Source: Squalus acanthias
Taxonomy: Eukaryota
Direction: 5' to 3'
DNA: 64,000 bases
Assembly (NCBI GenBank): GCA_030390025.1
Contig: CM059431.1
Span: 159,652,001-159,716,000, forward strand
Part shown: piece after piece, positions 39,655 to 54,313 of the stretch
Position numbering within the stretch: position 1 is the first letter of the stretch
Layout: the number at the start of each line of letters is the position of its first letter
The notes under the pieces: generated by a model
Seen by the model: only the letters and a program-made list of their open reading frames with translations
What the model was told of the DNA's origin: nothing
Databases searched by the model: none
Made by a program: the position numbers and the translations under genes

Positions 39655-40710
39655 ATGTGGAGATGCCGGTGTTGGACTGGGGTGGACAAATCTGAGAAGT
39701 CGCACAACACCAGGTTATAGTCCAACAGCTTGATTTGAAATCACAAGCTTCTGGTGAGCAGCAGCAGCAGAGTGGTGGTCTCTGTGGCCAGGAAGAGGAG
39801 AAGGAGACCAGATAGCAGGCCACCACCAACAACCAACAACAACCACAACTGAGGTGCCTGGAGAGAGAGGACAGGAGAGGAGAAAGAAAAGAAGGCCAAG
39901 GCCATTAACAACAGAGGAGAGGCCTTTCCACACTGCCTCCTCAATTGGCCTCCATTTTAGGAGAGGGAGAGAGGGGAGAAAACTTCACAAACAAACATCA
40001 TCTGTTTGGAAGGAGGAAGGAAGGAAAGAACATCATCTACAGGTGGGTGTGATTCTGGGGCACTCTCCCAGAGACTTTGTTTTGTAGGTGGGGGGAGGAA
40101 AGAAGATAAGAAGAGGGCCGGAACATCCAAGGGGTGTGTGTGTGTGGCTTTTGTAAAAGCTAGGCCGCACACACCATATTAAACACCCCTTTCCCATTGC
40201 CTGACCTGGGACAGCTGGAGCTGCCTAGGTGAAGTTCCCCAATTAATTATATCCAATTGGGCATCGTTAAGACCTGGTGCAGGACTGAGCCTGGGCATCT
40301 CCAGCTATCCCAGGTGAAGACATCTTCTCCCCCCACCAGAAGACCACCACCAAAGACTTTTTACATCGGAGAGTGCACCCCCCTGCCAACACCCACCCAC
40401 CCACCATCCTGAGTGGCGACCCTGCCCTTGCGGCTTCCCTCCTTCCCACCCCCCTCTCTCTCTCTCTTTGTCTCTTGTCTCTCTCTGCCTCTCTCTCTCT
40501 AAGAATCACCTCAATCTATTTTTAATTAAGTACCCATTGAGCAGAGGGGAGAAGGCCCCTCTCCCAATTCAATCAACTAAAGGGAGAGGTGTGCCTTCAA
40601 TTTAAGAGCTCCCTCTGCTCAGGGGAAACCAGAAATAAAAAAAACCAAGGCCATTAACACCTTCAGGCCTGTGACTTGGGGTGAGTGTAGCCCTTAAAGA
40701 ACCCTCCATT

Positions 40711-42865
40711 ATGGCGACCACATCTTCGCCGGTGGCGGGGGCAGCGAGGACGTACGCGAGCGTGGCAGCCGCGGCCACGGCCGCAGCCACGAGTCCTCCT
40801 GTTACCCCGTCACCTTTTACCCTCCTTACGAGGAAGAATGGGGTCAAGAGCTACACTCACCCCAACATGACTATAGAGGCGTGTGTAAAAGCCATGGCTG
40901 GGGTTGTCGGCCCTTCAGCCATCGTCGCCGCCTCTAAAATGTACGGCAAGGCTGTGTTCTTCCTGGGGTCGGAGCGGGCGGTGTCCCTGGCCATCGAGAA
41001 GGGGCTCACCGTGGGCGGGACCTTCCTGCCGGTGGACCCCCTTGAGGCCACCGCGCAAAGGATTGTGGTTTCCAACGTCCCGCCCTTTGTTCCGGGTGAG
41101 CTCCTCCTCCCCCACCTACGTCAACTGGGGGAGGTGAGGTCGGGGATCACACCCATCCCGCTCGGCTTCCGGGAAGCCAGCCTTCGGCACGTCTTCTCCT
41201 TCCGGCGCCAGCTTTTCGTCCGGCTGGCGCGGGAGGAGGACGCGGACGGCGCGTTCACGGTGCTCCACGGGGGGACCGCCCACCGCGTCTTCTGGACCTC
41301 GGACGGCGTGCGGTGCTACGCCTGTAAGGAGGTGGGGCACGTCCGCAAAAACTGCCCCGCCTCCAAGGCCGCCACGACACCTGGCGCGGCCAGGGTTGGC
41401 GCCGCCGCCCCCCCTCCCCCTGATACTGTCCGCGCGTCGACGGCGACGGATGCGCGGTCGAAATCGGAGGCCAACGCCACCACGGCCTCCGGCGGGGAGG
41501 AGGGAGAGCGTCCGGGGGGAAGGAAGGCGCGTAGGAAAACTAAACATCTAAGGGCGGATCCCCTCGCGGAGGAAACATCGGAATTGACCGAACTCACGCC
41601 CGAGTACATCGCGGAGTTGGTCGGGACGCATGAGACTGGGGGGGTCCTCGTGCCCGGGCCCGTGACCGTGACCGCAACTGCTGAGGCAGCTGAATCAAGA
41701 CCTGCGGCCGGGCTCGGGCCCGAGGGGCCCAAGAAACCCAGTCGTCGGAAGGGGGCAGAGAGGGAGGCCCCAGCAGACATGGAGGCCTCCCCCTCTCCGG
41801 GCCCCAACTTGTTAAAAAGAAAGCTCCGCCCCCAGCAGGAGGACTGCGAGGAGGAAGGTCCCTCCGCAAAAGGGGGGCAGTCGCCCGCCGCGGGTGCTGC
41901 GCCCCACCCCACCACCGTCATCGTCGCGCGCGATCGGCAGGGGTCGTCTGTCCCTCGGGAGGGTGAGACAGCCGAGTCTGTCCGACCTGTGCCTCCCGGG
42001 GATGGGGAAGAGACCCTGCCCGTGGGGGGGGGGCGCGGAACAACCCGCGGAGGGAAATGTAGTTCTGGAACCGTTGCTCCTCGCCGGGTCGGGCGTCCTG
42101 GGGACTGGGGCGGGCGAGGCCAAAGAGGCTGAAGCCGAGCCCGCCTTTTATAACCCAGACATCTCCCAGGGACTGCTCGACCTGGTGGAGGAGTTTCACA
42201 ATCCCCAGCCCGCTGGGTCGGAGGTTGGTGGCGGGGAGACAGAAAGCCCCCTGACTCCGTCTCTGATGTTGGCGCCGGACGTACTGGAGGAAATTGAGAT
42301 TATTTTCTCCCCGGTTTCTCCGGTCGCTCCGGCGCCTGAGGCGGGGGGGGGCCCCGAACCGCCGCCGCCTCCCGGCCCGGCACCCCTGAAGGAGCCCAGG
42401 GTGGACTCCTCTGCCACCGATCCTGGGGGTGGGATCGTGACGGAGGCGGGGCCGGCCGGTGCGGCCGAGCCGTTCGCTGCACCCCGTGTGACGGACGGGT
42501 TGGCCGCCGGTGATGACCTCCCGGAGGAGGACGGGGACTCGGTGTTGGGCAACGAGGACGATTTGGAGTCCATCGGCAGCGAGGCGATGGATGCCCTCGT
42601 GCCCTTCACCGACTCTCCCCTCATCCCCGTAGGGGAACTCCGGGATTTTATGGCCGTGAGCCACGGTCGTCACAAGAAGATCCGGCTGGCCCTCGACAAG
42701 TGGTCGGAGCTGGCGCTGCTCGTCGTGTCCGTCCGCGCCGCCGTTAAAATCATGGGCGCGGACAAGGACGTTGGCCGGCTCGAGCTGCGTCGGCTCAAGA
42801 GTTTCCACACTGGGCTGCTGAGGGAGTGGCGGTCGTCAGTGACCGCCCTCCCTCCCCTCCGTTAG
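40711..42865 (+). CDS. Tx1 ORF1 (gag-like, CCHC zinc knuckle), split by a +1 frameshift at a G10 run (42024-42033)
   Basis: RTYASV, AASKMYGKAVFFL, VSNVPPF, HVFSFRRQ and CYACKEVGHVRKNC motifs; a G9 run would fuse the two ORF pieces. Confidence 0.85.
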
Positions 42866-42890
42866 GTAGAGGTTGCACTATGCTTCTGAG

Positions 42891-53000: not shown

Positions 53001-53939
53001 GATGGCGGAGGAGCGGGCTGGATGGCGCCGGAGGAGTTGGCGAGGCGCATGTCTTGGGTCAACGTCCGGCTCGCGGTCAAAGCCATCGAGTCGCTAAAAG
53101 TGGCACTGGGCCCCGTCTCCACTAGGTGTGTCGAGGAGGCTCAAGCACGTGGGGCGATCCCGTCCGAACTGACCCCCGTTCGGACGGAATTCCTTATCGG
53201 CGCCCGGCCCCGAATCCTCCCTCGGGAGCCGCCGCCTCACCACTTGAGCCTTCTCGGAGAAATGCCCTCCGTGCCCTTTCAATCCGCACGGAGGCGTTTC
53301 CTGTACGGGCTGCTCCTGCACACTCTCCACTTTGCCATCTTCGTCTGCCGTCCGGACACGCCTTGGCGTACCATCCTGCCGTCCGGCGGAGGCGAAGGTC
53401 CCCATTGGAAGGCTCTCTACGCGGGAGTCTTCCCTTGTTCTATTGGGGACTTGGCCTGGAGGGTGTTGCACGGAGCAGTCCCGTGCAATAGGATTTTAAG
53501 TAGGTTTACGGACTCCCAGGCTGCTTGCCATTTTTGCGGCCTGGAGGAGTCCGTTTATCACATTTATGTTGAATGTGAGAGGTTGCAGCCCCTCTTTCAT
53601 TATTTGAAGGGGCTGCTCCTCAATTTCTGGTTGCACTTCAGCCCCACGCTCCTGATCTACGGTCACCCGGTGCGGAGGGGAGCGGGTAGGTCGGAGGACC
53701 TCCTCGTAGGACTGCTCCTGGGCCTGGCCAAGAAAGCCATTAATTGGTCCAGGCAGCGGGCGGTCGAGGGGGTCGTTCGGCCCGATTGCCTGCCTCTCTT
53801 CCGCGGCCATGTTCGCGCCCGGGTGGCCCTGGAGATGGAGCACGCGGTGTCCGCCGGCACGCTTGAGTTTTTCCGCGACCGGTGGGCGCCGCGGGGACTG
53901 GAGTGCATCGTCACCCCGGACTTTCAAATTTTAATTTGA
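50040..53939 (+). CDS. Tx1 ORF2 copy 2, intact
   Basis: Translation identical to copy 1. Confidence 0.95.
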   Translation: MKITIASLNINGSREARRRFNNFSVLRDGKYAVCFLQETHTVPGDEATWLLEWQGGVSMSHLSNNSCGVAVLLAPHFQPEILRVKEHVPGRLLQVTVRLGGVPLHLVNVYAPRTGAQQVRFFGEVSALLGSIDVGECVILGGDFNCTLEARDRSGPPRSPAAMEKLRDLVGSFDLVDVWRNLHPDSSAFTSVRSGGGRSRIDRLYISRAYVSCVPAASMRPVPCTDHHLVWAELAPLRARGGSAYWHFNNLLLEDARFRDSFRRFWADWRRKRGGFPSLRLWWDVGKAHVRVFCQEYAKGSTKRREARVGRLEKEVLDLESRLGQVVEDPALRKVYEEKKGALKDLQLVGSRGAYVRSRIQLLRDLDRGSPFFYSLEKRRGVRKQLLGLLAGDGSLVSDPEGISAEARAYYGALFSSDPSSEDARRVLWEDLPKVGPEGAENLEAPLSLAELTGALRQLSRGKSPGLDGLTVEFHRAFWDVLGDDYARVLGESLATGEMPLSWRRAVIVLLPKKGDLRLLKNWRPVSLLSTDYKIFARAMSARLGTVLARMIHPDQSYTVPGRSIHDNIHLVRDLVHHSQRAGLSVAFLSLDQEKAFDRVDHEYLFGTLRAFGFGTHFVARIRLLYAAAECLIKVNGSLTAPLRFGRGVRQGCPMSGQLYAVCVEPFLRLLRKRLTGLALQGPGVEVVLSAYADDVLLAVTDPVDLRRMRECQQIYSDASSAKINWEKCSGLLVGPWRVDSLPEEFGPFAWSTTHLLYLGVYLSPAEDAWPANWQELEAKVTARLGRWTGLLRVLSYRGRALVINQLVAAMLWYRLVTLIPPPAFVAKMQKKLVDFFWDKRKHWVSAAVLSLPLREGGQALVCLRTQAATFRLQTLQRYLYVENPPRWRALATYFFRQLHGLNYDTQLLFVRVGGTRASLQELPVFYQELLWVWNSVASERSSPPSGAAAVLREPLFRNPHLHDRGFGWLAEGRAVPGKVTRVGDLLDGGGAGWMAPEELARRMSWVNVRLAVKAIESLKVALGPVSTRCVEEAQARGAIPSELTPVRTEFLIGARPRILPREPPPHHLSLLGEMPSVPFQSARRRFLYGLLLHTLHFAIFVCRPDTPWRTILPSGGGEGPHWKALYAGVFPCSIGDLAWRVLHGAVPCNRILSRFTDSQAACHFCGLEESVYHIYVECERLQPLFHYLKGLLLNFWLHFSPTLLIYGHPVRRGAGRSEDLLVGLLLGLAKKAINWSRQRAVEGVVRPDCLPLFRGHVRARVALEMEHAVSAGTLEFFRDRWAPRGLECIVTPDFQILI

Positions 53940-54313
53940 TTTATTAAGTTTCATTTCAAGTTTTAATTGATTTACAGTAAATTTGCGTTCTGTCAAACCA
54001 AAAAGATCAACACCAGGTTATAGTCCAACAGTTTTATTTGAAATCACAAGCTTTCGGAGCGCTGCTCCTTCGTCAGGTGAAGTGACGAAGGAGCAGTGCT
54101 CCGAAAGCTTGTGATTTCAAATAAAACTGTTGGACTATAACATGGTGTTGTGCGACTTCTCACACTTGTATTCTATGCCACGGCTAATAAAGGCAAGCAT
54201 TCCGTATGCCTTCTTAACCAAGTTATCTACTTGGCCTGCTACCTTCAGGGATCTGTGGACGTGCACTCCAATGTCCCTTTTTTCCTCTACACTACTCAGT
54301 GTCCTACCATTTA

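What the first reader, a model, noticed from the sequence alone, without database searches (positions are those of the whole stretch)
39655..54164. Tx1 LINE apparently targeting the hammerhead-bearing terminal repeat of a Penelope element (parasite of a parasite of a parasite)
Seen: two full-length Tx1 elements sit inside a ~230-bp Penelope-terminus hairpin element, which itself sits in a CR1. The 24-mer CAACACCAGGTTATAGTCCAACAG from the Penelope terminus occurs before, between and after the Tx1 copies (39705, 46855, 54008). It lies about a dozen bases from the hammerhead motif. Known: Tx1-clade elements are often sequence-specific (Xenopus Tx1L/Tx2L in Tx1D/Tx2D DNA transposons; Keno in U2 snRNA; Mutsu in 5S rDNA; Dewa in tRNA spacers) and make TSDs of about this size. 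Inference: this family uses the abundant PLE pLTR (seven copies in this window alone) as its dedicated target. I know of no described Tx1 with this target but cannot confirm novelty. ORF2 is intact, so the endonuclease is testable.
Basis: partly seen in the sequence, partly recalled or inferred. Interest (0 to 1): 0.85.

Follow-up and report, generated by a model that had tools for sequence, protein, structure and literature searches.

The report
Tx1 LINE homing into Penelope ends
A young jumping gene with about 1,000 copies in this vertebrate genome lands about nine times in ten at one exact base near the end of another, very abundant jumping gene, and it differs from close sisters that land elsewhere by one amino acid in its DNA-cutting domain, which likely helps set the new landing site.

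Summary
Confirmed, with corrections. Two full-length Tx1 LINEs (ORF2 intact, 50% identical to Xenopus Tx1L) sit head to tail in a 207-bp hairpin of a Neptune-type Penelope terminus, itself inserted in a CR1-like LINE with a 13-bp duplication. Genome-wide, 981 of about 1,055 3' ends of this subfamily abut AACACCAGG; the target 30-mer has 90,712 exact copies. Corrections: the true duplication is about 14 bp, not 24; the cut maps to C^AACACC; the extra match is a target copy carried at the element's 5' end; ORF1 is frameshifted in both window copies; and the two copies are near-clones, not independent jumps. The specificity holds only for this young subfamily: sisters 92-97% identical use T^ACAC or T^AAG sites. 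The only endonuclease change unique to the Penelope-targeting clade is Q113R, at the position of L1 Asn118/R1Bm Tyr98, matching an A-to-G change beside the cut. This is a testable but lineage-confounded candidate. Tx1 targeting of other transposons is known; a Penelope target was not found in nine paper searches (Repbase/Dfam not searchable). The scan already noted this family in other windows of this genome. Verdict: new variant of a known kind.

The parts
39642..39654 (+). 13-bp target-site duplication of the Penelope hairpin in a CR1-like LINE (left copy)
   Evidence: same 13-mer at 54165-54177; an empty homologous CR1 site lies near 37640-37660
39655..39705 (-). Penelope pLTR 'tail' and terminus, upstream half of the target (…GAGAAGTCGCAC)
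   Evidence: same terminus ends RT+GIY-YIG Penelope copies L154-L156
39706..39719 (+). left 14-bp Tx1 target-site duplication AACACCAGGTTATA
   Evidence: modal 14 bp in 5'-truncated copies
39720..39750 (+). element-borne 5' head copied from the Penelope target (antisense to the pLTR)
   Evidence: variant CTTG in 19 of 68 heads, 0 of 25 3' flanks, 0 of 32 empty sites
39706..46855 (+). Tx1 LINE copy 1, full length
40711..42865 (+). ORF1 (gag-like, CCHC knuckle), frameshifted in the G-run near 42023-42032
   Evidence: PF00098; open 728-730-codon frame in L101, L106, L110, L114, L134, L136; indel
42891..46790 (+). ORF2: APE endonuclease + RT + C-terminal Cys/His region, 1299 aa, intact
   Evidence: 50% to Xenopus Tx1 ORF2
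43227..43229 (+). codon R113 (YAP-R), the only endonuclease residue unique to the Penelope-targeting clade
   Evidence: aligns to L1 Asn118
46856..46900 (+). internal junction: 14-bp duplication plus head of copy 2
46856..54008 (+). Tx1 LINE copy 2, full length (ORF1 from 47860, same frameshift; ORF2 50040-53939; R113 at 50376-50378)
54009..54022 (+). right 14-bp Tx1 target-site duplication
54008..54164 (.). remainder of the Penelope hairpin (two inverted pLTR ends)
   Evidence: folds as one long stem
54044..54082 (-). minimal type-I hammerhead motif (palindromic AGCU helix III), antisense to the Tx1; predicted cleavage 54048/54047, about 39 nt from the insertion point
   Evidence: motif positions; architecture as in PMC4209133; not found by Rfam; activity untested
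54165..54177 (+). 13-bp duplication of the Penelope hairpin (right copy), then CR1-like host continues

Best explanation
This is a young Tx1-clade LINE subfamily that inserts about 93% of the time at one base (GCAC^AACACCAGG) in the terminal repeat of an abundant Neptune-type Penelope element, likely because its own APE endonuclease recognises and nicks that sequence for target-primed reverse transcription. Shown: the site, single-base precision, fixed antisense orientation, ~14-bp duplication, a 5' head carrying up to ~50 nt of target sequence, head-to-tail arrays, and sisters with other sites. Inferred: bottom-strand nick at 5'-GGTGTT^GTGC and a second nick ~14 bp away; the 5' junction is sealed by pairing of the head cDNA with the target or with a resident copy, which regenerates the site and builds arrays. 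Also inferred: the shift from the ancestral T^ACAC site was helped by Q113R, arginine reading the G next to the cut where the sisters' glutamine faces an A (about 45% likely as a main cause).
For: Target use: 30 of 30 fetched best hits; 981 of ~1,055; 29 of 32 position-ordered ends; both hairpin arms hit in L133, L136. Off-target copies still sit at genomic CAACAC(C): 6 of 8 non-Penelope loci with a visible 5' end, so the core is read from DNA. A bare 7-mer is not enough: only 20 of 60 CAACACC in 267 kb of masked flank are the Penelope site. The base before the cut is C in 13 of 13 truncated copies, against T in 7 of 8 and 28 of 29 for the two sister groups. R113 is in 18 of 19 Penelope-site copies; Q113 in 17 of 17 near and 19 of 19 far sisters. 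Of the first 82 R113 copies, 77 end at the Penelope site, 5 have no readable end, none has a sister site. Of 40 Q113 copies, 28 have sister sites, 1 the Penelope site, 11 are unreadable. Residue 113 aligns to L1 Asn118, a major-groove contact (PMC8565326) and the equivalent of R1Bm Tyr98, whose mutation changes cleavage (PMC1919474). Tx1L endonuclease alone is sequence-specific (PMC1950540).
Against: No nicking or transposition assay. Q113R is one evolutionary event, co-inherited with at least 8 other clade-specific ORF2 changes outside the endonuclease, so the many copies are not independent tests. One Q113 copy (L196) is at the Penelope site; it is nested in the clade with a CpG-type change, but that reading is inferred. 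Sisters with the same residues at 113/167/191/193 use two different sites (L167 vs L182), so something else also steers the site. One side chain is unlikely to explain ~10 bp of specificity, and L1 loop grafts were not modular (PMC1950540). In 2 of 13 copies the 3' junction matches the consensus where the upstream flank does not, at the third base, hinting that RNA read-through contributes. Many copies are in arrays, so counts overstate independent events. The three count patterns differ slightly, so 93% is approximate.
Confidence: 0.8

Rival explanations
1. RNA-guided reinforcement: the endonuclease reads only a short core (CAACACC), and the preference for Penelope comes from pairing of read-through 3' RNA and of the 5' head with the target, so elements return to the kind of site they came from.
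For: The element carries target sequence at its 5' end in 68 of 75 heads; arrays give read-through across the target; the base after AAAAGA[GT] is element-derived, and 2 of 13 junctions show consensus overwriting at +3; sisters with the same endonuclease residues use different sites.
Against: 5'-truncated copies without a head and 6 copies with the ancestral 5' end are at the same base; off-target sites carry their own CAACAC(C); Tx1L endonuclease is specific on its own.
Confidence: 0.25
2. The specificity change lies outside the endonuclease, in the RT or C-terminal region (H550R, R747G, R940E, D1026V, I1031V, Q1122H, R1124K, F1173Y), and Q113R is a passenger.
For: These changes track the clade about as well as Q113R; the endonucleases are 97-99% identical in DNA.
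Against: Endonuclease swaps set the insertion site in TRAS1/SART1 (as cited in PMC1919474); residue 113 is at a known base-contact position.
Confidence: 0.3
3. Hitch-hiking: one Tx1-in-Penelope composite was amplified as a unit by Penelope enzymes or by duplication, so the shared junction is inherited, not targeted.
For: The two window copies are near-clones (2 substitutions in the body against a between-array median of 94.5), as are L116/L117.
Against: Truncation points differ from copy to copy, each with its own 14-bp duplication; flanking Penelope copies differ in type (11 of 26 hairpin, 15 plain) and in outer flanks; both arms of single hairpins are hit by different copies.
Confidence: 0.03
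4. The Tx1 uses the Penelope hammerhead to process its own RNA, so the site is chosen for function.
For: The site is ~39 nt from the predicted cleavage point; in hairpins the second arm offers a sense-strand motif downstream; long heads contain CTGACGAAGGAGCAGC.
Against: The adjacent hammerhead is antisense to the Tx1; the head has no core in a workable order (read by eye); the sense arm in this window lacks C3; hairpins are not enriched among occupied sites (11 of 26 vs 17 of 36 empty); minimal hammerheads cleave poorly (PMC4209133).
Confidence: 0.05

Closest known systems
Tx1L of Xenopus laevis (type element of the Tx1 clade; ORF2 = P0004, YTX2)
   Same: ORF2 50% identical over 1299 aa; two ORFs, APE+RT; inserts at one site inside another transposon (PMC4494074, PMC1950540 passages)
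   Different: Tx1L targets the piggyBac-type DNA transposon Tx1D; here the target is the pLTR of a Penelope-like retroelement; residue 113 is T in Tx1L, R here
Tx1-Mar, Tx1-9_AMi, Tx1-8_Crp and Tx1-4_AMi of crocodilians (Kojima 2015, PMC4494074; first fifth, passages and section 15 read)
   Same: Tx1 families that prefer other transposons (Mariner, Harbinger, LTR elements); tandem insertions; 5' extensions taken from the target are described for SINEU-2B
   Different: 'Penelope' occurs 0 times in the main text (supplements not available); those families are old (85-87% to consensus), this one is 97-100% identical with intact ORFs
R1Bm and human L1 endonucleases (PMC1919474, PMC8565326; passages read)
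   Same: Residue 113 sits at R1Bm Tyr98 / L1 Asn118, tied to base contact near the cut
   Different: There the effect was shown by engineered mutation or structure; here a natural Q/R difference tracks a target change between 97%-identical sisters, untested in vitro
Neptune-clade Penelope-like elements with minimal hammerheads (PMC8557442, PMC4209133; passages read)
   Same: Target element has RT, CX4CX2C linker, C-terminal GIY-YIG, a tail at one end, inverted pLTR copies and a minimal hammerhead
   Different: I found no report of such an element serving as the fixed target of a LINE

Membership tests
Tx1 clade non-LTR retrotransposon | ORF2 with N-terminal APE endonuclease and RT | tested here: met
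   PF03372 E 1.5e-11, PF00078 E 8.5e-38; L1-EN structures are the best PDB hits
Tx1 clade non-LTR retrotransposon | ORF2 closest to Tx1 references | tested here: met
   Xenopus Tx1 149-kDa protein 50% over the full length; no RT tree against other clades was built
Tx1 clade non-LTR retrotransposon | ORF1 with CCHC knuckle | tested here: met
   PF00098; frameshifted in the window, open in 6 other full-length copies
Tx1 clade non-LTR retrotransposon | Target-site duplication, 5' truncation, no poly(A) tail or LTR | tested here: met
Target-specific Tx1 (Kojima's criterion: more than 20% of flanks of one type) | One repeat type dominates the flanks at a fixed base | tested here: met
   981 of ~1,055; 29 of 32
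Target-specific Tx1 | Endonuclease nicks the target specifically in vitro | not testable with these tools
   needs a biochemical assay
A catalogued Repbase/Dfam Tx1 family | Identity to an existing entry with an annotated target | not testable with these tools
   no such library here; paper searches list none
Penelope-like element, Neptune type (the target) | One ORF with RT and C-terminal GIY-YIG, CX2-5CxxC linker | tested here: met
   L154: 697-aa open frame, RT PF00078; CHGNLCKTC and NVVYLIRC...WYIGET read by eye; Pfam did not score the GIY-YIG part; Nematis not excluded by a tree
Penelope-like element, Neptune type (the target) | pLTR with minimal hammerhead | tested here: inconclusive
   core motifs and short helices present; Rfam negative; cleavage untested
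CR1 LINE (outer host) | CR1-type ORF2 C-terminal sequence | tested here: inconclusive
   frame reads across the insertion; a homologous copy has Exo_endo_phos_2; the clade label rests on a recalled motif

The most novel reading that the evidence does not exclude
A natural single-residue specificity switch: Q113R in the APE endonuclease turned a loosely targeted T^ACAC LINE into a Penelope-terminus specialist by changing the base read next to the cut from A to G. The genome then holds a live series of 92-99%-identical endonucleases with different targets (Penelope, an L2-like 3' end, other repeats, dispersed T^ACAC) from which a recognition code for LINE endonucleases can be read. A target-derived 5' head lets new copies be completed from resident neighbours.
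Probability: 0.4. Interest if true: 0.75.

Novelty: new variant of a known kind. Interest (0 to 1): 0.55.

Why it matters
It adds a Penelope retroelement terminus to the list of Tx1 'safe harbour' targets: about 90,000 sites, one per 41 kb, in which a LINE can spread with little harm to host genes. More usefully, the subfamily and its sisters are nearly identical yet land at different sequences, with one endonuclease difference at a known DNA-contact position. That makes a long-standing question, how APE-type LINE endonucleases change target, testable with one swap between natural variants, which bears on retrotransposon-based targeted insertion tools.

Tried and rejected
24-bp TSD: rejected; truncated copies give ~14 bp. 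'All copies of the ORF2 end abut the target': not so, 787 of 1,333 and 7 of the first 30 by position, because sisters share the probe. Two independent insertions in this window: rejected. Rfam: no match in the window or in 18 sister-target loci, so the sisters' sites are not known RNA genes at that threshold. Hammerhead in the Tx1 head: no workable core order (by eye). Hairpin enrichment: none. Single-sequence AlphaFold model of the endonuclease: mean pLDDT 34.6, unusable, not searched. Expression: no RNA holder on record was listed; the runs laid were contigs with RNA status only guessed, so nothing is concluded on transcription. The junction from Penelope tail to Penelope ORF start was not recovered, so the target's place relative to the start codon is not shown. 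Paper searches for a described Penelope-targeting Tx1 found none; subscription journals, Repbase Reports and the supplements of PMC4494074 could not be seen and may bear on novelty. A word search of earlier scan notes for the endonuclease switch returned nothing.
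Full report
Observation. The 24-mer is at 39705, 46855 and 54008 and at five other places in the window. Between them lie two units of 7150 and 7153 bp that differ at 10 of 7155 alignment columns, nine in the last 50 nt. Each has an open 1299-aa ORF2 with APE and RT domains, 50% identical to the Xenopus Tx1 protein over its whole length. 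The closest partial hits are from cartilaginous fishes (74% and 69% over about 30% of the protein), so the host is likely one. ORF1 has a CCHC knuckle but is frameshifted in a G-run in both copies; six other full-length copies have it open. With the Tx1 copies removed, a 207-bp hairpin of two inverted Penelope ends plus a 50-bp tail remains, flanked by a 13-bp duplication in a CR1-like reading frame (CR1 label recalled).

The target. The same terminus ends elements with one ORF holding RT, a CX4CX2C linker and a GIY-YIG motif (L154-L156). That layout is described for the Neptune and Nematis clades (PMC8557442, passages). A minimal hammerhead with a palindromic helix III lies on the strand opposite to the Tx1, 12 nt beyond the 24-mer and about 39 nt from the insertion point (compare PMC4209133, passages). 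Rfam does not detect it. The target 30-mer has 90,712 exact copies in the 3.71-Gb genome.

Genome-wide test. All 30 fetched of the 40 best full-length hits to the 3' end continue into CAACACCAGGTTA (selected for 100% identity, the window's own copy included). All 30 fetched 5' ends follow the same target sequence. An unbiased 25-mer from the end of ORF2 gives 1,333 matches, of which only 787 are followed by AACACCAGG; the rest are mostly sister subfamilies. A subfamily-specific 3' UTR pattern gives 1,054 ends; a near-identical pattern gives 1,055 followed by AACAC and 981 followed by AACACCAGG, about 93%. Among position-ordered loci, 29 of 32 distinct subfamily ends are at the site, 1 at a second CAACACC on the other strand of the Penelope tail, 2 elsewhere. 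In L133 and L136 both arms of one hairpin carry converging copies. Of 15 ends followed by AACACC then not A, 3 are variant Penelope sites, 3 the second Penelope site and 9 unrelated; 6 of the 8 unrelated loci with a visible 5' end have genomic CAACAC(C) at the junction, 2 show no duplication. In 267 kb of masked flank only 20 of 60 CAACACC are the Penelope site (a small sample biased toward repeat-rich DNA), so more than seven bases must count. Contigs of four coded runs with four organism labels hold the element at about 99.5% or more, and one contig of organism C spans the 3' junction.

Junction anatomy. Of 24 5'-truncated junctions, 10 show a 14-bp duplication, 5 show 13 or 15, 2 are shorter, and 7 gave no exact match, 3 of these a 14-bp copy with one mismatch (array units are not independent). 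The base after AAAAGA[GT] often differs from the genomic base (5 of 13, 8 of 8, 2 of 29 in three groups), so it belongs to the element and the cut maps to C^AACACC, possibly a few bases further in. The longer match in full-length copies is a head: of 75 distinct 5' ends, 47 carry about 50 nt of target plus a CTGAC segment, 21 stop at AAGCT, 6 keep the 5' end shared with sisters, 1 is other. The CTTG variant occurs in 19 of 68 heads but in 0 of 25 3' flanks and 0 of 32 empty sites, so heads travel with the element. Units within arrays share private head variants even when their bodies differ by 33-75 substitutions, while the window pair differs by 2 and L116/L117 by 5, against a between-array median of 94.5 (n = 204, minimum 44). 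I infer that the 5' junction forms by homology with the target or the resident copy, and that the window's second unit was largely copied from the first; local duplication or assembly smoothing are alternatives.

Sisters and the candidate determinant. Sisters 92-97% identical use T^ACAC[TC] (dispersed and in several repeats), T^AAG (one site just past the stop of an L2-like ORF, label recalled) or TACAAGG. The base before the cut is C in 13 of 13 truncated copies of this subfamily, T in 7 of 8 and 28 of 29 sisters. In a midpoint-rooted ORF2 tree the 20 Penelope-site copies form one clade (support 0.87) nested among T^ACAC copies (copies with under 3,800 aligned bases left out). The only endonuclease residue unique to the clade is R113: 18 of 19 versus Q in 17 of 17 near and 19 of 19 far sisters. 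Genome counts are 882 R and 253 Q. Of the first 82 R copies, 73 match a listed AACACCAGG end, 4 more end in Penelope sequence and 5 have no readable end. Of 40 Q copies fetched out of 253, 28 have sister sites, 11 are unreadable and 1 (L196) is at the Penelope site; it is nested in the clade with a CpG-type G-to-A change. Residue 113 aligns to L1 Asn118, one of few base contacts, in the major groove (PMC8565326, passages). Maita et al. equate that position with R1Bm Tyr98, whose mutation changes the cleavage pattern (PMC1919474, passages). That arginine reads G and glutamine reads A is textbook recall. Against this: it is one event, co-inherited with at least eight other ORF2 changes; sisters with the same endonuclease residues use two sites; and L1 loop grafts did not transfer specificity (PMC1950540, passages).

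Mechanism. Shown: fixed site and orientation, ~14-bp duplication, heads, arrays, sister targets. Inferred from Tx1 biology: ORF2 nicks the bottom strand at GGTGTT^GTGC, primes reverse transcription, and nicks the top strand ~14 bp away; the 5' end joins by homology. Insertion leaves the left site intact, so arrays grow. Hitch-hiking is ruled out by independent truncations and by converging insertions. Use of the hammerhead has no support.

Comparison and novelty. Tx1 families that target piggyBac, Mariner, Harbinger and LTR elements, snRNA genes and microsatellites are described (PMC4494074: first fifth, passages and section 15 read; 'Penelope' absent from the main text; supplements unavailable). 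Nine full-text searches listed no Penelope-targeting Tx1; I saw most hits only as listings. PMC11167929 (first quarter read) was used only for pLTR and tail background. Repbase and Dfam could not be searched. The scan has noted this same family in at least six other windows of this genome; a word search for the endonuclease switch returned nothing. Verdict: a real, young, target-specific Tx1; new target for a known habit; interest 0.55, raised by the testable Q113R switch.

Noticed in passing
window 33430-33665 versus 39642-54177 and 37640-37660: A second Penelope hairpin sits at the identical base of another CR1-like copy that is only ~80% identical, each with its own copy-specific 13-bp duplication; a third copy is empty. 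The Penelope element itself seems to have a preferred site (tails often follow ...ATG).
   Followed up: partly
L081, L083, L097, L143, L146: A sister Tx1 subfamily inserts at T^AAG(G)AGA just past the stop codon of an L2-like ORF, antisense (label from a recalled C-terminal motif).
   Followed up: partly
   Followed up: partly
L159, L160, L164, L166, L169, L175, L180, L184, L185, L190: A more distant sister (~92%) ends at one fixed sequence TACAAGGCCTACAATTCAG of an unidentified repeat; another group (L086, L105, L139, L140) uses one repeat at GCGTT^ACACTCAAAGGG.
   Followed up: no
genome counts: 882 copies reach the endonuclease against ~1,055 3' ends: an unusually high share of long copies for a LINE, in line with completion from resident neighbours or very recent activity.
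   Followed up: no
L124 (G000:C2:120538945-120546645): A short copy with a sister-type 5' flank (TT^ACACC) but a Penelope-type 3' end and flank; possibly a chimeric or nested event.
   Followed up: no
window about 700-11500 and 17800-27400: Long ~48-bp-unit satellite arrays; several Penelope ends and a 5'-truncated Penelope (18650-19830) are inserted in them. A 99% copy of 18650-19430 lies 95 kb downstream (L153) and a 100% copy on C3603.
   Followed up: no
L174: A sister copy is inserted at C/T^ACAC inside ORF1 of another Tx1 copy (self-insertion).
   Followed up: no
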